Positions 47,082-59,761 of a DNA stretch of 64,000 nucleotides are shown here, piece by piece (position 1 is the first letter of the stretch; each line of letters begins with the position of its first letter). A program made the translations under genes and the position numbers. This stretch comes from an uncultured Alphaproteobacteria bacterium (lineage in GTDB: Bacteria; Pseudomonadota; Alphaproteobacteria; RF32; CAG-239), in NCBI GenBank assembly GCA_944393225.1, contig CALXZK010000002.1, positions 15,148 to 79,147 on the forward strand, given 5' to 3'. The notes beneath the pieces were generated by a model. That model worked only from the letters and a program-made list of their open reading frames with translations, was not told the origin of the DNA and ran no database searches.

Positions 47082-47149
47082 GCAAAAAAGCCTGTTCGTG
47101 CCAATAATAAACAATGTTTTGAACGAAAATAATGTAACTTAAATGGGAT

Positions 47150-47410
47150 TTAATTGAAATAAATTAAGGACAGTGATGTGATGATAAACAACACAACATA
47201 TATCAACGCATAAAAAACCATTTTACTCATTTTTTGTTTGATTTTTTCTCGGTATAAAAGCGGAAATAAAATATATACCAAAAGATAAACGCTTCCCCAA
47301 AAACCAACAAAAAGCTCATAATCTTGAGGGGTAAACACAAATGCTGTTATACCGCCCATCATCAGGGGAACAACAAAAAAACCAATTATGAAAAATATTA
47401 TCCTCTTCAT
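47150..47410 (-). CDS. Small membrane protein (about 3 TM), hypothetical
   Basis: 86-aa hydrophobic ORF, gagga RBS. Confidence 0.6.
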   Translation of the reverse strand: MKRIIFFIIGFFVVPLMMGGITAFVFTPQDYELFVGFWGSVYLLVYILFPLLYREKIKQKMSKMVFYALIYVVLFIITSLSLIYFN

Positions 47411-47442: not shown

Positions 47443-47476
47443 AAAAAAAAGGCAATATAAAAAAATATTGCCTTTT
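47443..47476. terminator. Terminator at the distal end of the phage-like cluster
   Basis: aaaaggcaatat / atattgcctttt with U-tract on the minus strand. Confidence 0.75.
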
Positions 47477-47486
47477 ATTATATTGT

Positions 47487-47738
47487 TTATATATTTTTGT
47501 TTTTATGATAATTTTTTCTCACTTTATTCCCAATGTCTTTACACTTACTTACGCTATGTCTTGAATTTTTTAAACACTTTATTGTTTCTTTTTCGCCAAT
47601 ATTAAGTGTTTTTATCCCAAAGGCTTCATTTTTTATTTTTTTGTAAGTTTCACTAGCTTTTTCCATTGCTTTATTTACACTTTTATTTTTGACCTTCTTT
47701 AATGCAGTTTTTCCGACTTCTTGTATTATTTTATTCAT
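47487..47738 (-). CDS. Hypothetical basic protein, last gene of the cluster
   Basis: Likely start MNKIIQEV at 47738 (gagggg RBS), overlapping the upstream stop. Confidence 0.5.
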   Translation of the reverse strand: MNKIIQEVGKTALKKVKNKSVNKAMEKASETYKKIKNEAFGIKTLNIGEKETIKCLKNSRHSVSKCKDIGNKVRKNYHKNKNI

Positions 47739-47946
47739 TCTTACCCCTCTGTAATTGTTTGGGATATTTGAACTTGATGGCTTGCCATTTTTCAATCACA
47801 TCAATCAGCTCATAAGGCAAATCGCCTCCTTCTTGCAAAACCATGTCAAAAGCTTTTAAAATGGCATCAAGCTGCTCTCCAATCGGCAAAATTTTCTCAT
47901 AGGCTTTTTGTCTTTTTTCTTTATATGTTGTTTTTGCTCTCGGCAT
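47731..47946 (-). CDS. Small phage protein resembling tail-fibre-assembly/chaperone-like proteins
   Basis: YKEKRQKAYE..PIGEQLD...WQAIKFKYPK resembles a recurring small-protein motif of marine podoviruses (from memory, unverified). Confidence 0.45.
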   Translation of the reverse strand: MPRAKTTYKEKRQKAYEKILPIGEQLDAILKAFDMVLQEGGDLPYELIDVIEKWQAIKFKYPKQLQRGKNE

Positions 47947-47956
47947 TTTTTCTCTC

Positions 47957-48325
47957 CTATTTGATAATTTTTCCGGTTGTATCTACAATTGAATTAAGCA
48001 AACCTCTGTTCAAAGCATTTTCTTTCTCACGATATTTTTGTTGGTAATTATATTCAAAATTATCATTGTTATAAGCCAACTCATCATATCCTTCTTTAGC
48101 TTCTCGTTGTTGAGCTGCCGCTGCCGATTTGCTTGAACTCAAACCCATGGCACTTAATCCGGCTCTTCGGCTTGCAAGTTGCTCATTTAGCAAATTTTTG
48201 CGTTTGGTTTGATTGTATTGATATTCTTTTTGCATTTGTTTTAATTGCTTGTTTTGGTTGTTGGCTTCATTTAACAAATTGACGGCGGTCATACCAACAC
48301 CAATGGCGGTTCCAATCCCTCCCAT
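47957..48325 (-). CDS. Putative small internal virion protein
   Basis: Gly/Ala-rich N-terminus plus Gln/Asn coiled coil (RRAGLSAMGLSSS), directly after tail tubular B, as for T7 gp14-like genes. Confidence 0.45.
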   Translation of the reverse strand: MGGIGTAIGVGMTAVNLLNEANNQNKQLKQMQKEYQYNQTKRKNLLNEQLASRRAGLSAMGLSSSKSAAAAQQREAKEGYDELAYNNDNFEYNYQQKYREKENALNRGLLNSIVDTTGKIIK

Positions 48326-48340
48326 TATTTTCTCCTTTCT

Positions 48341-50239
48341 TTATTCTTTGGTTTTTATTTCATTGGCTACCGACAAAAGCATAAATTTGTTTGGAACATC
48401 ACTTTTGATGCTCCACATTGGCTTTTGTACATCTCTTATCCAACCGATTGAGCGCAACTCAACATCTCCGCTAAACTCATCGGGCGGAGAATCTAAAATT
48501 TGGTCTTTGTGCATTTTCTTTAACGGAACATCAAAATAACCATTACCAAAATCAAGCCTTAAGGATTTTGATTTGATTATCCGAAAAATTCCATGAATCA
48601 AACGATAGGCCTTCGGAGGATAGGGTCTGGTTGAATCTACCATAAAAGGCAACGGCTCTATGATATGTTCATATGGTAAACCAACAATGATTTTACCAGC
48701 CTCGTCCTGAAGTGTTATTTTACCGTTTTCTACCGGCAGTTCTTCTATCGGAAAATCGTCTGCGACAACAGAAACTTTTTTTCCTTCCCATATATCTAAA
48801 TCAGCCCATTCTTTTTTCGGGGTTTCCGATACAAAAATTTTACCGCAATCAACATACATTTCCTCAGAAAATGTTTCCAAAAAATATGTTTCTGCTCTTT
48901 TGATAAGAAAATATATTTCATTACCGATTACAGCACACGATATAAATTTTCCATCGGTTACATATTTGCTCCACGCATTGACCTCTTCTGTGCGATATGA
49001 AGTCAGGCAAGAAATGGTTCCGTCTTCCAAAATCAAGTATAAAATACTATCATCTTGAAAATAAACACAATCCACCGGTTTATTGATGATTTCATCTGAC
49101 AACAAAGTCAAATCTTTGGCTTGATAAGCTTGCTCCACATCAGCATATAAGAACTCACGCAATTGCTTGCCGTTTTGTGATACGAACAAAGTGGCGCCAT
49201 CTACATTTTGCGGCGGAAGTGAATATTTGGCATAGGTTCCGATATTGGTTTGGCGATTGAGTTTAATGCTGGTTGGCGTTAATGGTTCTCCCGATACCAT
49301 CCACTCTGCTCCGGTGGTAAACACCAACAAATGTCTGGTTGAAACAACATTCAAAACCGCATTGACCTGATCTGATAAAATGGCAAAGTCAATAGACTCA
49401 TCATCTAACCCAGTACCTATATCAAAATTAAATAAATCTGATGACTTGGACAGCCATAGGTGGTTTGGTAATGACCTTGAGCCGCCGATGACCATTCTAT
49501 CTTGATGGAATGTTACCGAATTTGGATAGCCGCGAAGTTTTGAAAAAGCTTGTTCTTCCCATTCAGTGGTTTCATTCCCATTGCCTAAGTTTTTAGTCAC
49601 ATCTGCTTTGCAATTTCTTGCATCACTTACTGAGGTTATTTTAGCTTCACCATCATTTATTCTCAGTCGGATACCAACATAATTTTGGTTAAAAAGATCT
49701 GTATCTGCCGTTAGCGTTATATTTCCATTTGTACTGCTTGGTTTGAGCTTTATTTTATTTTGATAAAAATTATAATACGGACAAAATACTTGTCCGTCTT
49801 TTTGATAGAATGACCATTCGGCAATTTTCCAGACCTCGTTTTGATTGCGGCTGATTTCTTGCGGCGGGACATCAGGGTGAACAACCAACAACGTATCAGC
49901 GCTTTGTGTCCAATTGATTTTTTTGAGTTGAGCCAAAGTCCATGGTGTTTCTAAAGTGGAAATCAGCTCTTTATTCTTGTAAATTTTGACTTTTTTATCA
50001 ACGAAACAGAGCAAATAAGTTTGTTCGGTGTTGAACTCAAAAGAAATTAATCTTCCCTCTTCTCCTATCTCGTCGACACAAGCTAACCCCCTTCTTCTGG
50101 AAACGCCACCGGTTGGGTGAATCTGCACATTTTGCAGTTTGCTGGCACCGTTTTCAAAAATGCGCAAATCGCCGCGACCATAAAGTTTGTCCGACAACTG
50201 CCCGGAGGTGAAATTGGTTTTGACGTATATTTGATTCAT
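48341..50239 (-). CDS. Tail tubular protein B (nozzle; T7 gp12-like)
   Basis: TNFTSGQLS...GR.D N-terminus, AFSKLRGYPNSVTFHQDRMVIGGS, EEVNAWS; position after tubular A. Confidence 0.8.
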   Translation of the reverse strand: MNQIYVKTNFTSGQLSDKLYGRGDLRIFENGASKLQNVQIHPTGGVSRRRGLACVDEIGEEGRLISFEFNTEQTYLLCFVDKKVKIYKNKELISTLETPWTLAQLKKINWTQSADTLLVVHPDVPPQEISRNQNEVWKIAEWSFYQKDGQVFCPYYNFYQNKIKLKPSSTNGNITLTADTDLFNQNYVGIRLRINDGEAKITSVSDARNCKADVTKNLGNGNETTEWEEQAFSKLRGYPNSVTFHQDRMVIGGSRSLPNHLWLSKSSDLFNFDIGTGLDDESIDFAILSDQVNAVLNVVSTRHLLVFTTGAEWMVSGEPLTPTSIKLNRQTNIGTYAKYSLPPQNVDGATLFVSQNGKQLREFLYADVEQAYQAKDLTLLSDEIINKPVDCVYFQDDSILYLILEDGTISCLTSYRTEEVNAWSKYVTDGKFISCAVIGNEIYFLIKRAETYFLETFSEEMYVDCGKIFVSETPKKEWADLDIWEGKKVSVVADDFPIEELPVENGKITLQDEAGKIIVGLPYEHIIEPLPFMVDSTRPYPPKAYRLIHGIFRIIKSKSLRLDFGNGYFDVPLKKMHKDQILDSPPDEFSGDVELRSIGWIRDVQKPMWSIKSDVPNKFMLLSVANEIKTKE

Positions 50240-50805
50240 CCTCTTACCTCCACAAGCGTAAAGTCTTCAAAACAAGAAGGTGTTGATTGTTGCGCATCAA
50301 TCGAGCGTGCTCGACTAACACTGTCTTCGGCAATTTTGCTTAAAAATTCGGCTCTGGTTGTGCTCTCGGTCAACGGGATGCAAAACTCATAAGCCAATTT
50401 GTTGATTAAAGCCTCGCAAAAATATGCCGGAAAGTTATCTTCATCCGGACGACGCAAATAAGTTAAATTGAGCTGCGGCAAATTTGTATAAATGCAATCT
50501 TTGACAATTTTATATTCAATGCCCCTACCCTTGCTTCCATACCCTGCCGAAACAATCCGCAAAAAATCGGACGGAAGCAGATAAGCATAGCTAAAATCGG
50601 CAATCGGCGTATTTTCCAAACGCGCCAACTTGGTTTGAGTTAAAGCAAAGCTCCATGGATAAGATGATAATAAGGCATCGCGAATATAGGGATATAAATT
50701 GCCGGCAACTTCTGCCTCTGCCGTTCCGTCTTCAAAACTGGTTATGCTTGAAGCACCGATTTTTAACAGAGCCTGTGAACAGATATTGATACTGGTGTTA
50801 CTCAT
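50236..50805 (-). CDS. Tail tubular protein A (adaptor; T7 gp11-like)
   Basis: INICSQALLKIGASSI...YPWSFA...YAYLLPSDFLR; likely start MSNTS at 50805. Confidence 0.8.
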   Translation of the reverse strand: MSNTSINICSQALLKIGASSITSFEDGTAEAEVAGNLYPYIRDALLSSYPWSFALTQTKLARLENTPIADFSYAYLLPSDFLRIVSAGYGSKGRGIEYKIVKDCIYTNLPQLNLTYLRRPDEDNFPAYFCEALINKLAYEFCIPLTESTTRAEFLSKIAEDSVSRARSIDAQQSTPSCFEDFTLVEVRG

Positions 50806-50821
50806 ATACTCTTTTCCCTTC

Positions 50822-50854
50822 AAAAAAAAAGGAGCCTGCATTGCTACAGGCTCC
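50822..50854 (-). terminator. Intrinsic terminator between head and tail genes
   Basis: Minus strand ggagcctg-tagcaatg-caggctcc followed by 9 T. Confidence 0.8.
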
Positions 50855-50921
50855 CTATCATTTGCTTACAGTGTATCTTTTTATTTTAAATCATTTTCAT
50901 AAAAGGTATAATTTATTTCCG

Positions 50922-51182
50922 TTAAGCGGCAGCAGGTGTTGCCAAGGCCGCAACAGTCACTGTTCCGTCTTCAATTGAAGATACGGACAAAACTGCCGGT
51001 TCTAATGTACTTGCCGTGCCGGCATTGGTCAAAATCATATCGCCTTTGCGAGCAAACGGAGCAATATCGTTGAAATAACCGCTTCCTTTAACGGTATTTA
51101 AATCATCTTCAGATGAATAGTTCCACAAAGTAAAACCATTGGCATAAGCCATTACGCTGAAATTTTTTGAATCATAAGCCAT
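50922..51182 (-). CDS. Small virion protein after the capsid gene (possible decoration protein)
   Basis: 86 aa, beta-rich (FTLWNYSSED...GYFND...GDMI); strong aggaa RBS. Confidence 0.55.
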   Translation of the reverse strand: MAYDSKNFSVMAYANGFTLWNYSSEDDLNTVKGSGYFNDIAPFARKGDMILTNAGTASTLEPAVLSVSSIEDGTVTVAALATPAAA

Positions 51183-51207
51183 ATTTTTAATTCCTTTCTT
51201 CTATCAA

Positions 51208-52032
51208 TTATTCTTCTTTGCATTTGATGCGGATAACGCCGGTACCGTCAATTAAGCATGCGCCTTGGCTCATCATGTTATTAACAAAGTGAGCGGCATG
51301 GTCGCCGTGCCATGTGATGTCTGATTTTACATCTTGACCGGAAGCATGTCCGACTGCGGTTTTGTGAAAAATGAAGCAATCGCGATTGGTGCCATCAAGC
51401 GGTAAACCGGTGTGCATAATCCAGTTGATGCCCAACCATTTGCGGCTTTCGGTACCTTTTAAGAACGGCAAATTGTCACCGGCATAGTCAGAGTTAGAGA
51501 ACTCATCAATATTCAACAAAGCATTCCATTGCAAAGGACCCACAATACCGAAGCGTTGTCCATCGTCCGGAACATCGTTGCTGTTCAATTTGGCAAAAGC
51601 TTGCAAGATGGTGTCTTTGCTCAAAACTTGAGAATAATCACCGACATCATTTTCAACAGGTGCTTGGCTCAAAGCACCGATAATCAATTCATCGGTTTTT
51701 CTACCCAAAGCATAAGCACCGGCACTGGCAACCACGCGACGTTCATCAATGCTCATTTTGAGCTCATCCAAAGCATCTACCCAATCACCGGCATAGTAGT
51801 CGAGCAATTCGCATTCGACCGGTGTGTGGTCGATGCTCATGACCGGAACCAAACCATGACGAGCCTTACCGGAGGCAATGCCTTTGCCAACCTTTTGGAA
51901 TACAGTGGTGGCACCGACAATGTTACCTTTGTAACGAACGGCATTTCTCAATTTTGAGCCCATTTGTTGGTATGCCAAATGAACATCTGCTTCAAAGTTT
52001 TTAATAAAGGACTTACTTACTTCTGTTGACAT
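51208..52032 (-). CDS. Major capsid protein
   Basis: F..DVHLAYQQMGSKLR, AGAYALGRKTDELII, FAKLNSNDVPDDGQRF, GACLIDGTGV; follows the scaffold gene. Confidence 0.8.
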   Translation of the reverse strand: MSTEVSKSFIKNFEADVHLAYQQMGSKLRNAVRYKGNIVGATTVFQKVGKGIASGKARHGLVPVMSIDHTPVECELLDYYAGDWVDALDELKMSIDERRVVASAGAYALGRKTDELIIGALSQAPVENDVGDYSQVLSKDTILQAFAKLNSNDVPDDGQRFGIVGPLQWNALLNIDEFSNSDYAGDNLPFLKGTESRKWLGINWIMHTGLPLDGTNRDCFIFHKTAVGHASGQDVKSDITWHGDHAAHFVNNMMSQGACLIDGTGVIRIKCKEE

Positions 52033-52078
52033 GTTTTTATTTTCCTTTTCATGTTAAATGTTAAAAAAAAATGTGAGA

Positions 52079-52789
52079 TTATTTTTCAGGATAGAGTTTT
52101 TCAAAACCACGAGTGATTTTGGCGATATAGGCGCTATCCTTATCACGCCAATAACGCGGGTCTTCCATCATTTTACGAAGTCCGGCTTCACTCAGATTGC
52201 TCATCTCGCCGTCGTTTTTGTTCAATAACGGTTCAGATGAACTCATCATCTTGTAAAGGGCAATCACACCTTCAGATGTTGAGCCCAGCGCTTCATAAAC
52301 TTCCGGATTGACATTTTGTTTTGCCCAGTTGGAAAGAGAGCGAGAAACCTCGTTAAACTTATCTCTGCCGCCAAAGTAGCGAGAAAGTTTTTCAAGTTGT
52401 TTTTCAGCTTCAAAATTAACGGCCATTTCATCTAAAACCGGCAAAACTCTCTCGCCTGCCAAGTCATAAACAAACTGAGCTTGTTCGTTGGTGAAACCTT
52501 TTTCATAAAAACGTTTCATCAAATCTTCATCTACTTCCAAAACAGGTGACGGACTTTTGATTTGATATTGCGTATAATTTTGCGGCATGTTGCGCAAATT
52601 GGTTTCAATCAGATTATCATCTCTTCTTGCCAAATCGTTATAAGAGGCAATCAGTTCTTCCAATCTGACCTCGCCTTTTTGCTCGTCCCAAAATTGTTCG
52701 GGCAAGCCTTGCGGTTTGTTAGAATATCCACCATTTTGAGCCATAGCGGATGTTTCCAAAAGATTTTCTGTTTTTGCTTTTGGTTGCAT
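52079..52789 (-). CDS. Capsid assembly (scaffolding) protein
   Basis: GLPEQFWD...Y, acidic helical body, C-terminal MMEDPRYWRDKD..YIAKI..GF; likely start MQPKAK at 52789. Confidence 0.7.
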   Translation of the reverse strand: MQPKAKTENLLETSAMAQNGGYSNKPQGLPEQFWDEQKGEVRLEELIASYNDLARRDDNLIETNLRNMPQNYTQYQIKSPSPVLEVDEDLMKRFYEKGFTNEQAQFVYDLAGERVLPVLDEMAVNFEAEKQLEKLSRYFGGRDKFNEVSRSLSNWAKQNVNPEVYEALGSTSEGVIALYKMMSSSEPLLNKNDGEMSNLSEAGLRKMMEDPRYWRDKDSAYIAKITRGFEKLYPEK

Positions 52790-52814
52790 TTGTTTTCCTT
52801 TCATGTAAAAAAAA

Positions 52815-53042
52815 TTAATTGATGTCACTAAGCTGCTCTATTTGGCGGACTAACCTTCTTTGTCCTTCCAAATCGCGCAGGTGACGGTCTTCTGCGTCTG
52901 CGCCCAAGCACCTCTCTATGGTTTGGCGGCGCAAATATGAGAGGACAATTTTGCCCTCTTTACTTATGAAGCACCGAACAAAGGCTTTTTTGATTTCTTC
53001 ATCGCTCATTTGTCTGGTGTCATATTCCTCATGCGGCGGCAT
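52815..53042 (-). CDS. Small conserved phage protein between portal and scaffold (Bbp19-like)
   Basis: AFVRCF.SKEGKIVLSYL...LEGQRRLVRQIE; likely start at 53042. Confidence 0.55.
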   Translation of the reverse strand: MPPHEEYDTRQMSDEEIKKAFVRCFISKEGKIVLSYLRRQTIERCLGADAEDRHLRDLEGQRRLVRQIEQLSDIN

Positions 53043-54570
53043 TTTCTTCGCCTCCGCCGATAAAGCCTTGCAACAGATTTTCATCTATGATTTTTTCGTT
53101 TATCAGTTTGTCGGGCACATTCAAAATTTTGCCTAAAGTTTTGGCTGCCTCAAATGCATTGACCGCGCCCATACCCAGCGCCCCCAAAGAAGAAACTAAA
53201 GACACCCATTGACTGATGTTGTTGACGTCTTCTCTGGCTTTGAGCATGGCTAACGGCGATTTGTATTGCAAATCGACAATTTTGCCGTCTAAGTCAAAAT
53301 TCATAATGTCACCGCGACGACGCAAAATCAGAAATGCACGCTTGAGCAAAGGAGTCAGCAACTCGGATTGCAAGCGTCCGAAACTGGCACCTAAAATGCG
53401 TGCTATCTCTGCGGTTCTTTCCAAAACTTCAGTTGCAGTCATATTCGGAGCATTGACTTGTGATAATCTATCTGCCAGCAAAGCATGATTGATATTCTTT
53501 TGCAGATTTTCTAAAATCAGCTGCGAAACATCAAATTTTCCGGGAGCTTCCAACGGAGTTAAGCCTTTTGAACCCACCGCTTTGGGAATAATTGCTCCGG
53601 GGACAAGTTTGATATTTGCCGGATTTAGAACCCCGTCATCATCAGCCTGCCAAATTCCGGTGACGGAAATGGAGGCGTTTTTCAATATCAGTTCCACAAC
53701 CTTATTGGCGGTTTTGATATCCGGCAAAGCCTTCATCACCGGAGAGCGCCCATAAATTTCTCCGGGAGCTTTGAGCCAACGGAAATTGATGAACGGCGAA
53801 GAAGAAAATACGCCTTCTTTCAAAATAACATTATCTTCCACACCGCTGTTTTCATCCCACACAAAAGCCGTGTATTCATACCCTGCGGCACCAAATTTAC
53901 CGTTTTGCGGAATAACCGCTTCAATCAAGCTTAAGCGAAAATCCGGATTTTGAGCTTGCTCCAGCCAGCTATCTTGTAACTCTGCCTCAGGGAAACGCAA
54001 ACGAATATCATCGATACTGACTTGTGAGCAACGGAATGTCGTATCCAACTTGCCATCGGCACTTTCTTCCAAAGCAATTTCTCGCAATGGAACAGCATAA
54101 AATCGGAATGCCGACGCTTCTCCAATCGGCGCTTCTTCAAACATCAAACAAGCCGTGCCGACCGTAATTAAATCCAGATAGCATTGATGAATTTCCACCG
54201 CAAAATTAGAATGTTCAAAATGCTGCAACATAATGTCTGAGGTTTTGCTCAAAGTTTCTGCCACTTGTGAAGCTTCTTCCGGCAACAACTCCGGACCAGC
54301 CGTCAAGCCAAACCATTTTGACCATGGCGGTGTCAATTCTGCCAAAAGTGATGATGCCAACTGATCAACCGCATCCGGTGCCGTGGCATCAAACAAATGC
54401 AGATTTTTCTTTGCCCCTTCCACATTTTGAAACATTGAACTGCAGACATTTTCTCTTTGCGGAAAAGCATATTCATAACATTCTTGCCAATGGGGTTCCC
54501 AGAGCTGTTTTCTTTCCACAGCCTTTTGATAACGTTTGATAAGCTTTTCGATTTTATTATCCATTTTCAC
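53029..54570 (-). CDS. Portal / head-to-tail connector (T7 gp8-like)
   Basis: FDATAPDA...LAS, RWLKAPGEIYGRSP...ALPDIK, MTATEVLER, RLQSELLTPL, YKSPLA. Confidence 0.9.
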   Translation of the reverse strand: MKMDNKIEKLIKRYQKAVERKQLWEPHWQECYEYAFPQRENVCSSMFQNVEGAKKNLHLFDATAPDAVDQLASSLLAELTPPWSKWFGLTAGPELLPEEASQVAETLSKTSDIMLQHFEHSNFAVEIHQCYLDLITVGTACLMFEEAPIGEASAFRFYAVPLREIALEESADGKLDTTFRCSQVSIDDIRLRFPEAELQDSWLEQAQNPDFRLSLIEAVIPQNGKFGAAGYEYTAFVWDENSGVEDNVILKEGVFSSSPFINFRWLKAPGEIYGRSPVMKALPDIKTANKVVELILKNASISVTGIWQADDDGVLNPANIKLVPGAIIPKAVGSKGLTPLEAPGKFDVSQLILENLQKNINHALLADRLSQVNAPNMTATEVLERTAEIARILGASFGRLQSELLTPLLKRAFLILRRRGDIMNFDLDGKIVDLQYKSPLAMLKAREDVNNISQWVSLVSSLGALGMGAVNAFEAAKTLGKILNVPDKLINEKIIDENLLQGFIGGGEENAAA

Positions 54571-54761
54571 TCTCCCAATAATGTTTTGCGGTTCAAATCG
54601 CGATTTGTGGGATCAAATGTTCCGGTATAAGATGTGCGGATGGTGCTTTCCAAACCACGACGTTGACGCGCCAAAGCTTCTTGTCTTGCCTTTTCGGCAT
54701 CTTGCGCCGAAGTGTCTTCAACCACTTGAATTTTTGGTTTGCTGCTAAATACGCCTCCCAT
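54567..54761 (-). CDS. Small virion-assembly protein upstream of the portal
   Basis: MGGVFSSKPK...RRGLESTI.TS..G......KTLLGE; ggag RBS; stop overlaps the portal start. Confidence 0.55.
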   Translation of the reverse strand: MGGVFSSKPKIQVVEDTSAQDAEKARQEALARQRRGLESTIRTSYTGTFDPTNRDLNRKTLLGE

Positions 54762-54784
54762 GTTTTCTCCTTTCTTTTTGATAT

Positions 54785-54812
54785 AAAAAAAGCCCGAATT
54801 TTTTATTCGAGC
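54785..54812 (-). terminator. Putative intrinsic terminator between lysis and head genes
   Basis: Minus strand gctcgaat-aaaaa-attcgggc followed by 7 T. Confidence 0.6.
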
Positions 54813-54835
54813 AGGTTCCTGTTTTTTTGTTAAAA

Positions 54836-55330
54836 TTATTGCTTCTTGTTGTTTTTTTCGGTTCCGCTTTTGACAACCTGAATACCCAAAACGCCCAGAG
54901 CCACACTCCAAAGTGAAGTGGTTTCAACCAAAGCATTGATGATGTTTTCGGCATTTTGATATCCGCTTAAAACCACATAGCAGACGGTGCCAATCATCAA
55001 CAACCAAGCCAAAGCGACCGAATAGCCAAAAGCCGGACGCCAAAAACGCACAAATTTGTCTTCGGCATTCAGTTCTTGACGTATGGTCTGATGAATCTGC
55101 GATAATGTATTGTTATCGAGCTCATTTTCCAGTTCTTTCATCTTTTCCAAATGCCGATTGGCTTCACTCACCGCAGCATTGGAAATTTTTTGTTTTTCAA
55201 TATCCGAGCTTACTTCACCCAAAGCTAAATTGGCTTTGAGTGCCGTATCTCCGCCGATTTTTTCTAACCCTGACCGCACCATTTTAATCAAAAACGGCAG
55301 CCCGAATTGGCTTAAAAGTTTTATCAGCAT
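54836..55330 (-). CDS. Holin of the 3TM (gene-transfer-agent release) type
   Basis: EDKFVRFWRPAFGYSVALAW...ALGVLGIQV..SG.EK matches the GTA_holin_3TM pattern. Confidence 0.7.
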   Translation of the reverse strand: MLIKLLSQFGLPFLIKMVRSGLEKIGGDTALKANLALGEVSSDIEKQKISNAAVSEANRHLEKMKELENELDNNTLSQIHQTIRQELNAEDKFVRFWRPAFGYSVALAWLLMIGTVCYVVLSGYQNAENIINALVETTSLWSVALGVLGIQVVKSGTEKNNKKQ

Positions 55331-55750
55331 TTATCTCTCCACATCGTTGTAAAAGACATGATTGCCGATTTCGGCACAAGGGATTTTCCCGATGGACCAA
55401 CGTGGACGCACTTTTTTGGTGTGATAATGCGTGGCACCGTAAGTTCTGTCGGGCAAAAGTCCTGCCAAAGCACGTTTGGCGATGCGTTTACAAGTGGCAT
55501 AAATCGGGTTGCTCTCATCCACACGCAGCAAAAGCCGATAATTGGCATCGTCCAAATTCCAACAAGAAAATTGTTTATCTTTTTGGCAGACGCTTGCCAC
55601 GTCATTTCCCCACCAATAGCCGCCTTTTTTCTCGCTCAAAGCAACCCTGTTCATAATCACATTGGCAACCGCTTCTTGTCCCGATAATGGTTCTCCCCTT
55701 GCCTCACCGAAAATGGTTTTGGCAAAGATGTCCGTTGTTAAATCTGTCAT
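55331..55750 (-). CDS. SleB-like cell wall hydrolase (Hydrolase_2), probable endolysin
   Basis: KTIFGEARGE (catalytic Glu), AVANVIMNRV, QFSCWN, GATHYH, IGNHVFY. Confidence 0.88.
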   Translation of the reverse strand: MTDLTTDIFAKTIFGEARGEPLSGQEAVANVIMNRVALSEKKGGYWWGNDVASVCQKDKQFSCWNLDDANYRLLLRVDESNPIYATCKRIAKRALAGLLPDRTYGATHYHTKKVRPRWSIGKIPCAEIGNHVFYNDVER

Positions 55751-56034
55751 GAATTTCTTCCCACCCCATCTAATTTTTTTTCAATTCTCAGCAAATGGTC
55801 GGTTAAGCGATTTTCCACATCTTTCAGATAGTTGACCGAAACATAATTGCGGGCGACATGAAGCTTGAAATCTGCCAAAGCATCTTTCAAATTTGAAACA
55901 TGAGCATCGTGTGCTTCTTTCAAATGTTCTATGCCTTTATCCGCTTCTTTTTTGTTGCGATTAACCAATCGAAACAATGCGGCAAAAACCGGCAGCTCCA
56001 CCATTGCTATCCAGTTTGTCAGTTCGTTAAACAT
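55747..56034 (-). CDS. Small phage membrane/coiled-coil protein (lysis-associated?)
   Basis: N-terminal hydrophobic segment, FKLHVARNYVS...VENRLTDHLLRIEKKL. Confidence 0.5.
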   Translation of the reverse strand: MFNELTNWIAMVELPVFAALFRLVNRNKKEADKGIEHLKEAHDAHVSNLKDALADFKLHVARNYVSVNYLKDVENRLTDHLLRIEKKLDGVGRNS

Positions 56035-56042
56035 TGTTTTTC

Positions 56043-57551
56043 CTAATCTATTGTAAAAGTTGTTTGTGCCGAAAATTGCTTAGAGCCTCCTTGCCATTTG
56101 TTATATTTTGGCGGTGTGTTGCCGACAAAACAAACATTCAGGCGCAAAGGTTCATTACTCAAGCAGCCGGCAACGGCATCAAGTGCATCATCATGTCCGG
56201 TTCCCTCAACTGAGAACTCGCGCATTTCTTCAATAAACGGCGTGCTCCAAATTTTTTTATGAACATTTAACGCTCTTTCCGCCAGCAGAACCTCAAAAGC
56301 CGAAATTATTCTCTCAGCTTTGTTTTTGCTTGAGTACATTTCCAAAACAGCAACACGCATATTTTTTTGCGCCAGAACTTGTTTTAATATCCCCGGCAAA
56401 AACTTACCGATACCGTTGGCTTCTACCCGAACGGCATTCAAATGATTGCGCTCAATAAAAGCCGCTACCTTTTGACATTGTAATGACGCCGCATTATCTC
56501 TGACCTCATCTTCAATTTTGATATATTCCAAATCGTGCAGCCAATAGTGCCCATCTTCATCGGTAAAGACGCAGGCAATAACCGAATTATCTCCCTTTGA
56601 AGATGCAAAAGATGGATCCCACCAGCAAGAAGCCGACAACATTTTCTTCTCCCCGATTTTCAAAAAATCGCGCCCGTTTGAGGCAACGATGTTGATTTCT
56701 GCCTCATAAGGCTTCAAACAATCAGGATTCAAAATGCTGTCATTAAAGTTGACCGGTGTCAGCATCATTTGTGACAAGAATTTGTTTTCGCCGGAACGAA
56801 TGCGGATTGAAGCAATCTTCTCTTCGCTAAACCTTTCCGGCCAAGCAGATTTTCCTTCTTTATCCAAAATCGGCAGTTCCAACTTGGCAAAGCCCAGCAA
56901 AAAAGGTTCGGTCTCCGGCTTTTTATCATCGTATGCTACCTGATAGATGGTATAAAACGTATGCGGCGTGCCGATATAAAGCTGCATGCCTTCGGGTGTT
57001 AAGATATAATCCAACTCCTCTAGCTTTTCTCTCATATCGGCTCGCTTGGTCGGAGAATCCGAATTTTTCGGAACTTCAACGTCATCACAAATAATCAAAT
57101 CGGCACGCAAGCCGGTGATATTTGCGCCCAAGCCTTTGGCTAACATTGACGGATCTCTGAGCTCAAGCGGACGATTGATGGTAAATTGTCCTGCCGCCCA
57201 TTGATCTGACTTTTTAGGCTTCAATCCTTTGGTCAAAGGATGCTGCTCAATAATGCGTTTGACGTTTCTGACCATTTTTTTTGCCAAAGCATGATCTGCC
57301 GCCATAACCAAAATTCTGGTCTCGGGCTTATAATATAAAACCCAAGCACAAAACAAACCGACAATTGTTGACTTGCCAGAGTTGCGAAACGCCATCAACA
57401 AACCTTGTCTTTGTTTGGACGTTGTAAACAACCCGGACAACCAATGTGCCATTTTGCTTTGATGCTTGGGTACTTTCAGCCCCTGCAAACGCATCCAGAC
57501 ATATACAAAATCAAAAAAGCTGACTTTTGTGTTTAAGTCAGCTTTCATCAT
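56043..57551 (-). CDS. Terminase large subunit (T7 gp19-like)
   Basis: Walker A AFRNSGKST, Walker B LIICDDVE, IGTPH, WWDPS, HDDALDAVA; likely start at 57551/57548. Confidence 0.9.
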   Translation of the reverse strand: MMKADLNTKVSFFDFVYVWMRLQGLKVPKHQSKMAHWLSGLFTTSKQRQGLLMAFRNSGKSTIVGLFCAWVLYYKPETRILVMAADHALAKKMVRNVKRIIEQHPLTKGLKPKKSDQWAAGQFTINRPLELRDPSMLAKGLGANITGLRADLIICDDVEVPKNSDSPTKRADMREKLEELDYILTPEGMQLYIGTPHTFYTIYQVAYDDKKPETEPFLLGFAKLELPILDKEGKSAWPERFSEEKIASIRIRSGENKFLSQMMLTPVNFNDSILNPDCLKPYEAEINIVASNGRDFLKIGEKKMLSASCWWDPSFASSKGDNSVIACVFTDEDGHYWLHDLEYIKIEDEVRDNAASLQCQKVAAFIERNHLNAVRVEANGIGKFLPGILKQVLAQKNMRVAVLEMYSSKNKAERIISAFEVLLAERALNVHKKIWSTPFIEEMREFSVEGTGHDDALDAVAGCLSNEPLRLNVCFVGNTPPKYNKWQGGSKQFSAQTTFTID

Positions 57552-57849
57552 CTTCTTCTTGCTCCTGTTCATGTGCTTCTTCCAAAATGGAAGATATATC
57601 AAAATTATCATTCTGCGGCAAAGACATCGGCTCGTCTTCGGTCCAACGCGCGAGTTTTAACAAAGTTTCGGCATGAACCACCGCCGACTTGCATGCGCTA
57701 TGATGCGCACTAAAGCCTTTGGCATCGACCGGTGCCGGTTGCTCGGCAAAATTTTCGTAACTTTCAATCACCTCCGATATTTTTTGTGGTAATGTTTTTT
57801 TCAAATTTGCTTTTAATGATTTTAGTGTTTTTATTTTTTTACTTGGCAT
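57538..57849 (-). CDS. Hypothetical helical protein overlapping the terminase start (candidate small terminase subunit)
   Basis: Position and overlap; DAKGFSAHHSACKSA...LLKLARW with an acidic tail. Confidence 0.5.
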   Translation of the reverse strand: MPSKKIKTLKSLKANLKKTLPQKISEVIESYENFAEQPAPVDAKGFSAHHSACKSAVVHAETLLKLARWTEDEPMSLPQNDNFDISSILEEAHEQEQEEDDES

Positions 57850-57865
57850 TATGTGCATATCCCAT

Positions 57866-57890
57866 AAAAAAAAGCTCCGCAATCGGAGCC
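57866..57890 (-). terminator. Intrinsic terminator upstream of the packaging genes
   Basis: Minus strand ggctccg-attg-cggagct followed by a T run. Confidence 0.7.
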
Positions 57891-57978
57891 TTATTTTGTT
57901 TTAGATACACTACCAGCAAGTGATATTATGCTTATAGATTAAAAAAAATGAAATGTTAAGACTTTTTTCCTACTATTT

Positions 57979-58380
57979 TTAAGAGTTTGTTAAAAAAATA
58001 TATAATTGGTATGGTGTAATAATGCTAACCTTATGAATTCCCAATATTCTCTTAACAAATTCAACACATGTAAAAAATCCGAGCGGCGCGCATTTCAGCG
58101 GTGCTTGTTGAAACTCCACCGGCAGAACTGTCACATTTTTGCTTGTTTTTAAGTGATTTATATAATCCAAACCCAATAAAGATTCGTGTTTGAAGATATA
58201 CAACTGATTCGACATAGGATTAAGTTCCAACCATAGGTTGTGCTTTTTTGATATGCAAATTAGCATATAACAATGTCTGTAGCCTTTTTTTAAAAATCTT
58301 AGCCACCACAAACTGGTGTTGTTTTCAAAAACCACATAGCCTTTAAAAAAATATCCGCTTTGGAATCCGGAATTACGCAT
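57979..58380 (-). CDS. Hypothetical protein, possible permuted papain-like (NlpC/P60-related) fold
   Basis: GYRHC (His) ... FTCVEFVKRILG ... TPYQL (Cys) order. Confidence 0.5.
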   Translation of the reverse strand: MRNSGFQSGYFFKGYVVFENNTSLWWLRFLKKGYRHCYMLICISKKHNLWLELNPMSNQLYIFKHESLLGLDYINHLKTSKNVTVLPVEFQQAPLKCAPLGFFTCVEFVKRILGIHKVSIITPYQLYIFLTNS

Positions 58381-58389
58381 TTGTTTCTC

Positions 58390-58728
58390 CTACAAAATTT
58401 TATAATATCTTAAATAAACATCAAAATTGCGTAAGCCTTCTTCCCACAAGCGGATTTCACTGCGTTTTGCTCTCTTATCATCCCAAGGAGCAAGCTGTTT
58501 TTCTCCCCACTCTGTCATCACACGCAAATGCCGATTGCTGATGTGATGATGAAGTTTCATGTTTTTTATTATTCGATAAATATCTGTTATTTCACAACAT
58601 CTTGGTTTACCACAATAATCTGACCGTGAGCGCAAACCTCCCGCTCTTGCTTGCACCGAGGTGCAAAACCAAAACCAAACTTCTTCGGCATTTTCAAACG
58701 GTTCAAAATTTTCTTTCATTCCCTTCAT
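58390..58728 (-). CDS. Hypothetical protein, first gene of the cluster (candidate activator/antiterminator)
   Basis: PFENAEEVWFW...PRCCEITDI...WGEKQLAP...RLWEEGL; divergent from the repressor. Confidence 0.55.
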   Translation of the reverse strand: MKGMKENFEPFENAEEVWFWFCTSVQARAGGLRSRSDYCGKPRCCEITDIYRIIKNMKLHHHISNRHLRVMTEWGEKQLAPWDDKRAKRSEIRLWEEGLRNFDVYLRYYKIL

Positions 58729-58752
58729 GCTCCCCTTGAAATGTTAACACAA

Positions 58753-58771
58753 TTAACCAAATATTAACCAT
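58753..58771 (+). promoter_or_regulatory. CtrA-type binding box TTAA-N7-TTAAC(CAT)
   Basis: ttaa-ccaaata-ttaac-cat in the divergent intergenic region, plus another ttaac at 58744. Confidence 0.45.
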
Positions 58772-58884
58772 AAAGTTTTATACATTAGGTTGTAGGAATT
58801 TCAACATAAAAAAGAATTGATTCCTATTTCATCTTTTGTTATGATAGGAAAAATTGCCTTTAACCCTTTCTGAAAGCAAAAAAA

Positions 58885-59505
58885 ATGAAATATGAAAATG
58901 TTTGGGATGCTGTTGATAAGTTGGCAGAAAAGCATGGACTTTCGCCTTCCGGTCTGGCAAAACTCGCCGGTCTTGACGCTACCACTTTTAATAAAAGCAA
59001 ACGTATTCGCCCTGACGGTAAAAAAAGATGGCCTTCTCTTGATAGCATTAACCGCTTGCTCGAAATATTTAATATCACCTTTGAGCAATTCTATGCGCTT
59101 AGCGCCGGAACAGAAGAAAAAGAAAACGGTTCAATCCCTTTTATCAAACTCTCGGAATTGAATGCACAAAATTTTCCTGTCGATTTTAAAATAGCGGCAC
59201 AAAATTGGAGTAAAGTGCTTTTTCCTGATTTTAAAGAGACTCTTTATGCCATTGAAGTTGACAACGAAGCTTATTTTCCGCTATACCGTTTCGGTACAAT
59301 GCTTATTGTTTCTGAAAATTCTGACATCCGCAAAGGAGATCGCGTGGTTATCTACCTTAATGATGGCTCTATCTTATTGCAAGAATTTGTCAGAAGAACC
59401 CCTTCTAAACTGATTGTTACCGACATCAATCATCCCGAAGCCGAAGAAACAATTGCCATTGCCGATATCAACCTCATCAACCGCATTGTCTGGGTTAGTC
59501 AGTAG
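58885..59505 (+). CDS. XRE-HTH + S24-like (CI/LexA-like) repressor with degenerate catalytic dyad
   Basis: WDAVDKLAEKHGLSPSGLAKLAGLDATTFNKSKR...RWPS; C-terminal EVDNEAYFPLY and LLQEF. Confidence 0.85.
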   Translation: MKYENVWDAVDKLAEKHGLSPSGLAKLAGLDATTFNKSKRIRPDGKKRWPSLDSINRLLEIFNITFEQFYALSAGTEEKENGSIPFIKLSELNAQNFPVDFKIAAQNWSKVLFPDFKETLYAIEVDNEAYFPLYRFGTMLIVSENSDIRKGDRVVIYLNDGSILLQEFVRRTPSKLIVTDINHPEAEETIAIADINLINRIVWVSQ

Positions 59506-59515
59506 GAGATGCTCT

Positions 59516-59761
59516 TTGAATATAAAAAAATATTTGCAGCTGAGCGATAAAAAACTGCTCGAATTGGAAAATAAATATCAGTTTCTTCCCGACGAAGAAG
59601 AAATTGATAGTTTGAGGTTGTCGGCTGATAAATCTTGCTTGAAAGAAACTGCCCGTATTGCCAGACTTCATGCGCTGCAAAGACGAACCGAAAAAGCAGA
59701 AAAACTCCTTTCCGAAAAACGCAAACAAGCCATATTAAGCCGCTTTATTCGTCCTGAATAA
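59516..59761 (+). CDS. Hypothetical helical protein
   Basis: Probable TTG start at 59516 after aggag RBS (frame of track ORF 59414-59761). Confidence 0.45.
   Translation: MNIKKYLQLSDKKLLELENKYQFLPDEEEIDSLRLSADKSCLKETARIARLHALQRRTEKAEKLLSEKRKQAILSRFIRPE

What the first reader, a model, noticed from the sequence alone, without database searches (positions are those of the whole stretch)
58729..58884. Divergent switch region with a perfect CtrA-type box and repeated TAGGAA/TTCCTA operator-like sites
Seen: TTAA-N7-TTAAC at 58753-58768, overlapping TTAACCAT at 58764-58771; taggaa at 58793-58798; inverted repeat ttcctat(58821-58827)/ataggaa(58844-58850). Established: CtrA binds TTAA-N7-TTAA(C) and is required for RcGTA expression. 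Inference: the cluster is wired into the host cell-cycle regulator and repressed by the adjacent XRE protein. Caveat: TTAA-N7-TTAA also occurs by chance in this AT-rich DNA (for example 47139-47153).
Basis: partly seen in the sequence, partly recalled or inferred. Interest (0 to 1): 0.62.

Follow-up and report, generated by a model that had tools for sequence, protein, structure and literature searches.

The report
Conserved CtrA box in phage-like switch
A 160-base control region between a repressor gene and a 12-kb virus-like gene cluster of a human-gut alphaproteobacterium carries a perfect binding site for the cell-cycle regulator CtrA. The site is unchanged in 48 related genomes, so the host very probably decides when this cluster fires.

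Summary
A count within the window proves nothing: there is 1 full box against 1.6 expected. Comparison across genomes is decisive. In 48 orthologous loci from 15 genera, TTAA-N7-TTAA is invariant while its spacer and flanks drift. ctrA is present in nearly all of these genomes. In this genome the N7 box is enriched in intergenic DNA and clusters at the probable replication origin.

The box lies in a rigid module of about 75 bp. The module also holds a strong repressor promoter (P_R) and a likely leftward late promoter (P_L). The GGAA/TTCC elements match the half-site reported for Caulobacter RogA, a repressor with the same non-cleavable HTH + S24-like build.

Geometry argues against RcGTA-style activation of the cluster. 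The box is 13-33 bp from the first late gene, at about +3 to +18 of P_L. It also has the genome's typical CtrA-activator spacing (box, 11 nt, -10-like element) for a rightward promoter towards the repressor gene. The best reading is that CtrA~P holds the late operon off and boosts the repressor.

Only two of the three TAGGAA/TTCCTA copies are conserved. The scan had already noted the surrounding element on this window.

The parts
58390..58719 (-). First gene of the late operon (p112). The real start is the invariant Met at window residue 4 (ATG 58717-58719). The model is a four-helix protein of unknown function.
   Evidence: M4 is invariant in an alignment of 35 homologues. About 90 homologues exist, all in this clade. 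The AF2 model has pLDDT 87 and no significant PDB fold match.
58730..58735 (-). Shine-Dalgarno sequence (GGGGAG on the minus strand) of the first late gene.
   Evidence: Read directly from the sequence. An equivalent purine-rich SD lies between the box and the start codon in all loci.
58753..58768 (+). CtrA-type box TTAACCAAATATTAAC (TTAA-N7-TTAAC).
   Evidence: Exact consensus. The TTAA/TTAA columns are invariant in 48 loci from 15 genera.
58777..58785 (.). Conserved TTTATACAT element. It reads as -10 TATAAA of leftward P_L (minus strand, 58782-58777) and as -10-like TATACA of a putative CtrA-dependent rightward promoter P_C (58779-58784, 11 nt after the box core).
   Evidence: Spacing statistics. 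Genome-wide peak of -10-like hexamers 11 nt after TTAA-N7-TTAA cores. Host control promoter.
58789..58805 (.). GTTGTAGGAATTTCAAC: a dyad GTTG-N9-CAAC. It contains TAGGAAT (58793-99) and, on the minus strand, the -35 TTGAAA of P_L (58804-58799).
   Evidence: Near-invariant in 44/48 loci. In the 4 most divergent loci only the outer TTG...(T)CAA(C) survives. Unique in the genome.
58808..58816 (+). A-tract AAAAAAGAA directly upstream of the P_R -35. It matches the proximal UP-element pattern AAAAAARNR.
   Evidence: Columns are 46-47/47. The UP-element consensus is from my own knowledge.
58813..58824 (.). AGAA-N4-TTCC, one mismatch from the GGAA-N4-TTCC repeat reported in RogA-bound promoters. It overlaps the P_R -35.
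   Evidence: Sequence. Motif from PMC9632790. Columns nearly invariant.
58817..58845 (+). P_R, the repressor promoter: TTGATT-17-TATGAT with TG extension. TTCCTA (58821-26) and GATTC (58819-23, a GANTC site) lie within it.
   Evidence: Promoter scan. -35 and -10 with A2/T6 are kept in 45/48 loci.
58844..58850 (+). It is not conserved beyond close relatives.
   Evidence: Alignments.
58885..59505 (+). Repressor of 206 aa: HTH plus a degenerate S24-like domain (RogA-like architecture).
   Evidence: Pfam Peptidase_S24 and HTH_26, PHROG 4 'transcriptional repressor'. The recognition helix GLDATTFNKSKR is nearly identical across the 48 loci, with TTFN-KSKR invariant in all. No invariant Ser/Lys pair in the C-terminal half.
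47487..58380 (-). The controlled cluster: small ORFs, terminase, lysis genes, T7-type portal, scaffold, capsid, and tail tubular A and B (nozzle).
   Evidence: Pfam and PHROG hits. Same chromosomal site in at least 8 genera. Empty sites in congeners.

Best explanation
The 165-bp region is the bidirectional control switch of a 12-kb podovirus-derived, GTA-like element that is mostly inherited vertically. The switch holds three working parts at fixed spacing: the distance from the box to TTCCTA is 68-71 bp in all 48 loci.

(1) P_R is a strong sigma-70 promoter with an UP-like A-tract. It drives a non-cleavable, RogA-like HTH/S24 repressor.

(2) P_L is a leftward promoter (TTGAAA-16-TATAAA) for the late operon. 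Its -35 and spacer lie inside the GGAA/TTCC-bearing block that the repressor most likely binds.

(3) A single perfect CtrA box is bound by the host's CtrA~P.

The box covers about +3 to +18 of P_L. It also sits exactly where this genome's CtrA-activated promoters have their box: core, then 11 nt, then a -10-like TATACA, which puts the 5' base at about -39 for a rightward start near 58791. CtrA~P is therefore inferred to block the late promoter and to add a second, CtrA-dependent promoter for the repressor gene. The cluster could then fire only in cells or phases with low CtrA activity and after the repressor is relieved.

Shown: the sequence features, their conservation, the presence of ctrA, and the genome-wide use and geometry of the motif. 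Inferred: CtrA occupancy, promoter positions, the sign of control, and the repressor's operator.
For: Conservation: TTAA-N7-TTAA is invariant in 48 loci from 15 genera, while the N7 and the flanks vary.

Host factor: ctrA scores over the curated cut-off in G000 and in 253/283 genomes of the order. That includes every element-bearing genome except one MAG that is 59% complete.

The motif is used by this genome. There are 34 full boxes, 25 of them in the 10% of DNA that is intergenic. Control spacers N3-N12 give only 5-18 intergenic sites. Five boxes plus DnaA boxes lie in the rho|coaE intergenic region, a probable origin.

Geometry: -10-like hexamers peak at exactly 11 nt after intergenic cores, with 8 cases against a mean of 1.8 at the other offsets. 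A host promoter keeps TTAA + 10-12 nt + TATAAT in 8 genera. The switch has TATA(C/T)A at a modal offset of 11.

The box is only 13-33 bp from the late gene's start codon, with the SD between them, so it cannot be a -35 site for that gene.

Precedent: one CtrA box activates ctrA P2 (5' base at -39) and represses P3 (-14) (PMC4287350). CtrA represses or activates phage promoters (PMC9437464).

Repressor: HTH + S24-like domain without a conserved Ser/Lys pair. This is the RogA architecture, and RogA-bound DNA carries GGAA-N4-TTCC (PMC9632790). AGAA-N4-TTCC at 58813-24 is near-invariant.
Against: All three promoters are consensus inferences.

Both candidate -10 elements around 58777-85 are weak. 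P_L's hexamer has T at position 6 in 1/48 loci and P_C's in 10/48.

TTAA is self-complementary, so the box could equally be an inverted-repeat operator for an element protein. The repressor's recognition helix is nearly invariant, so covariation cannot separate the two readings.

The sign is opposite to the one GTA where CtrA control is established (RcGTA, positive).

Homology of the repressor to RogA itself was not tested, because I had no RogA sequence.

The GGAA core of the left block is lost in the four most divergent loci although the repressor helix is unchanged.
Confidence: 0.55

Rival explanations
1. CtrA binds the box but acts positively on the cluster, as the first reader implied by analogy with RcGTA. 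It might do so by remodelling the promoter from a downstream position or by displacing the repressor.
For: CtrA is required for RcGTA and other Rhodobacterales GTAs (cited in PMC9632790, and PMC9437464). CtrA activates phiCbK and Cp1R7A-A1 promoters. In 6 of 9 single-gene cases in this genome, the box's C-bearing end points away from the regulated gene, as it does relative to p112.
Against: There is no room for a promoter between the box and the SD or start codon: 13 bp in the shortest loci. Activation from +3 to +18 has no CtrA precedent known to me. This genome's activator geometry (box + 11 nt + -10) is met only in the rightward direction.
Confidence: 0.15
2. The box is not a CtrA site in vivo. 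It is instead the operator or loading site of an element-encoded protein. One candidate is the RogA-like repressor acting as a dimer on an inverted repeat. Another is p112 acting like a Q-type antiterminator that loads on direct repeats in the early transcribed region.
For: TTAA-N7-TTAA is also an inverted repeat. About half of the loci read TTAAC-N5-GTTAA. The repressor helix is nearly invariant, like the box. The box lies in the initial transcribed region of P_L, and p112 is the first gene. The only regulator-like fold hits for p112 are to the Q21 antiterminator (TM 0.36-0.45).
Against: The Q21 hits are not significant (E 5-8, probability <0.1). RogA-bound DNA carries GGAA-N4-TTCC, not TTAA, and GGAA/TTCC elements are present elsewhere in the switch. 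A perfect consensus box would be bound by the cell's CtrA in any case, since the same motif marks the origin and many host promoters. The asymmetric 3' C (TTAAC...TTAAC) fits a direct repeat of CtrA type.
Confidence: 0.2
3. The match is a chance product of AT-rich DNA and has no function.
For: The window-wide count is at expectation: 1 found against 1.62 expected.
Against: Eight columns are invariant in 47 distinct sequences from 15 genera, while adjacent columns are near random. Spacing to the other switch elements is fixed.
Confidence: 0.02

Closest known systems
CtrA box shared by ctrA promoters P2 and P3 in Caulobacter crescentus (Zhou et al. 2015, PMC4287350)
   Same: One full TTAA-N7-TTAA site is placed so that it activates one promoter (5' base at -39) and represses an overlapping one (-14). 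Here the 5' base is at about -38/-39 of a putative rightward start, and the box overlaps the start region of the leftward promoter.
   Different: Here the two promoters are divergent and control a phage-derived cluster and its repressor. No start sites or binding data exist.
CtrA-binding sites in promoters of Alphaproteobacteria phages, 'lytic deferment' (Mascolo et al. 2022, PMC9437464)
   Same: A host CtrA site in a phage-type promoter region couples virus-like gene expression to the host cell cycle. Repression by CtrA was shown for phage Delta.
   Different: Those are infectious pili- or flagellotropic phages with dense clusters of many sites. Here a single box sits in a chromosomally fixed, integrase-less cluster, next to a repressor gene.
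RogA repression of the Caulobacter GTA activators gafYZ (Gozzi et al. 2022, PMC9632790)
   Same: The repressor is about 210 aa with an HTH and an S24-like domain lacking catalytic residues. GGAA/TTCC repeats lie over the core promoter of the first regulatory step of a GTA.
   Different: In Caulobacter, rogA is unlinked, its target is gafYZ, the GTA is HK97/RcGTA-type, and that paper states that the CtrA phosphorelay does not regulate it. Here the repressor is divergent from the cluster itself. The lead gene has no detectable GafY/GafZ similarity. A CtrA box is built into the switch.
CckA-ChpT-CtrA control of RcGTA (Rhodobacter capsulatus)
   Same: A GTA-like element is tied to CtrA.
   Different: RcGTA control is positive and acts largely through gafA. 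The particle is a siphovirus-type head-tail. Here the cluster is T7-type and the geometry points to negative control.
Lambda-type CI/Cro divergent switch (OR with PR/PRM)
   Same: A repressor gene is divergent from the lytic-side operon, with back-to-back promoters within about 50 bp and repressor sites over the -35 regions.
   Different: There is no Cro-like HTH partner, no RecA-cleavable repressor, and no set of three similar dyad operators. A host response-regulator site is added.

Membership tests
CtrA-binding site (TTAA-N7-TTAAC) | Exact match to the consensus | tested here: met
   58753-58768 reads TTAACCAAATATTAAC.
CtrA-binding site (TTAA-N7-TTAAC) | CtrA encoded by the genome and its relatives | tested here: met
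   NF045991 scores 401 bits against a cut-off of 350 in G000. It is over the cut-off in 253/283 genomes of the order.
CtrA-binding site (TTAA-N7-TTAAC) | Conservation of half-sites, with a free spacer, upstream of orthologues | tested here: met
   The 8 half-site columns are 47/47, and the flanks carry about 0.1-0.5 bits.
CtrA-binding site (TTAA-N7-TTAAC) | The same motif is used by the host regulon | tested here: met
   25 of 34 sites are intergenic, against 5-18 for other spacers. There is an origin-like cluster with DnaA boxes.
CtrA-binding site (TTAA-N7-TTAAC) | Canonical position relative to a promoter | tested here: inconclusive
   The rightward -10-like TATACA lies at the genome's preferred offset of 11. 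However, the hexamer is weak and no start site is known.
CtrA-binding site (TTAA-N7-TTAAC) | Physical binding by CtrA~P | not testable with these tools
   Needs EMSA, footprinting or ChIP.
RogA-type GTA repressor circuit | HTH plus S24-like domain without the catalytic Ser/Lys | tested here: met
   Pfam S24 and HTH hits. No invariant Ser/Lys pair in residues 80-206 of 24 homologues.
RogA-type GTA repressor circuit | GGAA-N4-TTCC inverted repeats over the target core promoter | tested here: inconclusive
   AGAA-N4-TTCC at 58813-24 has one mismatch. TAGGAA and TTCCTA half-sites lie over both -35 regions.
RogA-type GTA repressor circuit | Target is a GafA/GafYZ-type activator | tested here: not met
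   p112 has no Pfam, NCBIfam or PHROG hit and no significant fold match.
RogA-type GTA repressor circuit | Sequence homology to Caulobacter RogA | not tested
   No RogA sequence was available in the tools. Only the architecture was compared.
RcGTA-type element under CtrA | RcGTA-like (HK97-type) structural cluster | tested here: not met
   T7-type portal, scaffold, capsid, and tail tubular A and B.
Phage CtrA-site clusters (Mascolo et al.) | High local density of CtrA sites | tested here: not met
   One full box and three core matches in 64 kb.
Lambda-type CI/Cro switch | RecA-cleavable repressor and a Cro-like partner | tested here: not met
   No conserved catalytic pair. p112 is a four-helix protein with no significant fold match.

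The most novel reading that the evidence does not exclude
A single perfect CtrA box acts as a two-way toggle in a previously undescribed podovirus-derived gene transfer agent of human-gut Alphaproteobacteria. CtrA~P drives a distal promoter of a RogA-like repressor and at the same time occludes the late promoter. Particle production would then be licensed only in CtrA-free cells. This is the reverse of the RcGTA logic, and it would be a direct, cis-encoded link between the alphaproteobacterial cell cycle and a GTA structural operon.
Probability: 0.3. Interest if true: 0.75.

Novelty: new variant of a known kind. Interest (0 to 1): 0.6.

Why it matters
CtrA control of GTAs and CtrA sites in phages are both known. 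In the studied GTAs, however, the link to CtrA is positive and largely indirect (RcGTA) or reported absent (Caulobacter). Here a perfect box is built into the promoter switch of the structural cluster itself, beside a RogA-like repressor gene. It has been kept unchanged across 15 genera of uncultured gut bacteria. That gives a short, well-defined DNA fragment on which three things can be tested directly with CtrA from model organisms: how a host cell-cycle regulator gates a domesticated virus, whether RogA-type control is general, and whether this T7-type cluster is a new GTA lineage.

Tried and rejected
- Window-wide motif counts carry no signal on their own.
- I looked for covariation between the repressor helix and candidate operators. 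The helix is nearly invariant (TTFN-KSKR in all 48 loci), so the test is uninformative.
- p112 fold search found no significant match. The Q21 antiterminator hits at E 5-8 were noted but not used as evidence.
- Repressor against PDB, by sequence and by profile, returned only a weak HTH hit, so the loss of the catalytic dyad rests on the family alignment.
- Rfam scan of 57800-59700 found nothing near threshold.
- I searched the genome for other copies of the switch blocks, hoping to find unlinked loci under the same control. The blocks are unique, and one short TTGATTCCTA match at C18:13141 looks ordinary.
- I looked for att-like flanking repeats. A 16-bp AT-rich repeat flanks the element in this window, but 7 other occupied loci have no equivalent.
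- I rejected a -35-type CtrA promoter for the late operon for lack of space.
- I rejected a BaGTA relationship as a basis for interpretation. The BaGTA papers mention CtrA only with reference to RcGTA.

Full report
**Observation.** It holds TTAACCAAATATTAAC at 58753-58768, TTAACCAT at 58764-58771, TAGGAA at 58793-98, TTCCTAT at 58821-27 and ATAGGAA at 58844-50. Counts within the window give the box no weight. The full box occurs once against 1.62 expected, TTAACCAT 3 times against 3.35, and the TTAA-N7-TTAA core 3 times against 5.1. TAGGAA/TTCCTA is rarer than expected overall (17 against 27.6), yet three copies fall within 58 bp.

**Setting.** The region separates two divergent genes. The first, on the plus strand at 58885-59505, encodes a 206-aa protein. 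It has a Cro/CI-type HTH and a weak Peptidase_S24 match, and it hits PHROG 4 'transcriptional repressor'. The second is a minus-strand operon. It starts with a 109/112-aa protein of unknown family (58390-58719) and continues through two small ORFs. Then come the large terminase, a holin-like protein, a cell-wall hydrolase, a T7-type portal, scaffold, capsid, and tail tubular A and B. There is no integrase or replication gene. Housekeeping genes flank the unit: mlaC, an SBP and an abhydrolase on the left; a HAD-like gene, yhdP and prfB on the right.

The genome is a 1.7-Mb, 38% GC MAG-type assembly. Near relatives are titled 'uncultured Alphaproteobacteria'. The nearest phage-database record for the capsid is a human faecal contig.

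**Element status.** The whole unit sits at the same chromosomal site in at least 8 genera, with all genes open. Protein identities track those of the flanking host genes: about 77-81% (element) with 65-68% (host) within the genus, and 60-70% with 45-55% between genera. Some congeners have empty sites in which HAD and the abhydrolase are adjacent. In those, the cluster, the repressor and the switch are all missing together. The repressor and the switch therefore belong to the element. The element behaves as a vertically inherited, occasionally lost, GTA-like module rather than a mobile prophage. The scan had already noted this element on the same window; I checked the synteny independently.

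**Is the box real?** I collected the intergenic region from 48 loci (47 distinct sequences) in 15 of the order's 24 genera.
- Every locus has the same divergent gene pair.
- Every locus has TTAA-N7-TTAA.
- The eight half-site columns are 47/47. The base after the first TTAA is C in 39/47, and the base after the second is C in 34/47.
- The spacer is only partly conserved, and columns outside the 16 bp carry about 0.1-0.5 bits.
- This holds in lineages where the lead protein is only 33-38% identical.

**Host factor and motif use.** ctrA is present in G000 at 401 bits against a cut-off of 350. It is over the cut-off in 253 of 283 genomes of the order, including all element-bearing ones except a MAG that is 59% complete. 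The motif is clearly in use in this genome. Of 34 full boxes, 25 lie in the 10% of the genome that is intergenic, whereas spacers N3-N12 give 5-18 intergenic sites. Five boxes, together with DnaA boxes, lie in the 590-bp rho|coaE intergenic region, a probable Cori-type origin. The ctrA promoter itself carries TTAA-N6-TTAAC and GTTAAC. GcrA and an N6 methyltransferase are also encoded.

**Architecture of the switch.** The distance from the box to TTCCTA is 68-71 bp in all loci, so the module is rigid.

*P_R.* This promoter is TTGATT(58817-22)-17-TATGAT(58840-45) with a TG extension. The consensus scan found it. Its -10 has A2/T6 in 45/48 loci. It is preceded by an invariant AAAAAAGA tract that resembles a proximal UP element.

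*P_L.* The late operon needs a promoter within the roughly 70 bp left over. The only conserved candidate is TTGAAA (58804-58799, minus strand)-16-TATAAA (58782-58777). Its -35 is kept in all lineages. Its -10 almost never has T at position 6 (1/48), so it is probably weak or factor-dependent.

*Repressor sites.* The block GTTGTAGGAATTTCAAC and the block AAAAAGAATTGATTCCTA carry TAGGAA(T) and (A)TTCCTA as an inverted pair over the two -35 regions. In Caulobacter, RogA is a 213-aa HTH/S24-like repressor of the GTA activators that lacks the catalytic residues. It binds promoter DNA featuring GGAA-N4-TTCC repeats (PMC9632790). The protein here has the same architecture. It has no conserved Ser/Lys pair, and AGAA-N4-TTCC at 58813-24 is near-invariant. 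That makes the GGAA/TTCC elements the likeliest repressor sites, and it argues that the TTAA box belongs to a different factor. I could not align the protein to RogA itself.

**Position of the box and sign of control.** The lead gene's true start is the invariant Met at 58719. Only 13-33 bp, holding the Shine-Dalgarno sequence, separate it from the box. The box therefore cannot be a -35 activator site for the late operon. Relative to P_L it covers about +3 to +18.

In Caulobacter, full CtrA motifs activate when their 5' base is near -35 to -39 and repress when they overlap the -10 or the start. One box does both at ctrA P2/P3 (PMC4287350).

I tested the local rule in this genome. Among 57 intergenic cores, -10-like hexamers peak exactly 11 nt after the core: 8 cases against a mean of 1.8 at the other 29 offsets. 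A host promoter (yicC-like) keeps TTAA + 10-12 nt + TATAAT across 8 genera. In the switch, the conserved TATA(C/T)A lies at a modal offset of 11 on the plus strand. This places the box's 5' base at about -39 of a rightward start near 58791, reading towards the repressor gene.

The most economical reading is that CtrA~P recruits polymerase to this rightward promoter and at the same time shuts P_L, whose -10 and start region it and the polymerase would occupy. This is negative control of the cluster. It resembles CtrA repression in phage Delta (PMC9437464) and differs from RcGTA.

**Limits.**
- Both -10 candidates at 58777-85 are weak.
- TTAA-N7-TTAA is also an inverted repeat. The repressor's recognition helix is nearly invariant, so an element-encoded binder cannot be excluded by covariation.
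- The lead protein folds confidently into four helices but matches nothing significantly. Weak resemblance to the Q21 antiterminator is only a lead for the rival in which the box is its loading site.

**Verdict.** CtrA is the probable binder (about 0.7). The direction of control is an inference (about 0.5).

Noticed in passing
G000 contig C7:17621-18132 (outside the window): A 590-bp rho|coaE intergenic region holds five TTAA-N7-TTAA boxes plus DnaA-box matches (TGTGGATAA, TTGTCCACA). It is a probable Cori-type replication origin silenced by CtrA.
   Followed up: partly
window 58819-58823: GATTC (a GANTC CcrM-type methylation site) lies inside the -35/spacer of the repressor promoter and is kept in 44/47 loci. 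GcrA and an N6_N4 methyltransferase are encoded in the genome. This may be a second cell-cycle input.
   Followed up: partly
window 47454-47469 and 59519-59534: A 16-bp AT-rich direct repeat, AATATAAAAAAATATT, lies just outside both ends of the element. Seven other occupied loci show no equivalent repeat, so it is probably chance or low complexity.
   Followed up: yes
L092 (G127), L094 (G194), L095 (G261): Empty sites occur in congeners. yhdP-HAD-abhydrolase-SBP-mlaC are contiguous, with only 100-800 bp where the 12.6-kb unit (cluster + repressor + switch) sits elsewhere.
   Followed up: partly
window 58777-58782 (minus strand): The inferred late-promoter -10 is TATAA[A/C/G] in 47 of 48 loci and almost never ends in T. 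This consistent avoidance suggests a deliberately weak or factor-dependent promoter.
   Followed up: no
window 58390-58719: The lead protein p112 gives a confident four-helix model (pLDDT 87) with no significant PDB match. The only regulator-like hits are to the Q21 antiterminator, at non-significant scores.
   Followed up: partly
G000 contig C6:19521-19646: Two copies of a roughly 110-bp tandem repeat lie upstream of yidC. Each carries a GTTAA-N7-TTAA box followed directly by TTGACG.
   Followed up: no
window 51208-52032: The capsid's nearest record in the phage collection is a 5-kb 'Bacteriophage sp.' contig from human faecal samples (77% identity). The next is a Pelagibacter podophage at 42%. 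This suggests relatives of the cluster turn up in gut virome data.
   Followed up: no
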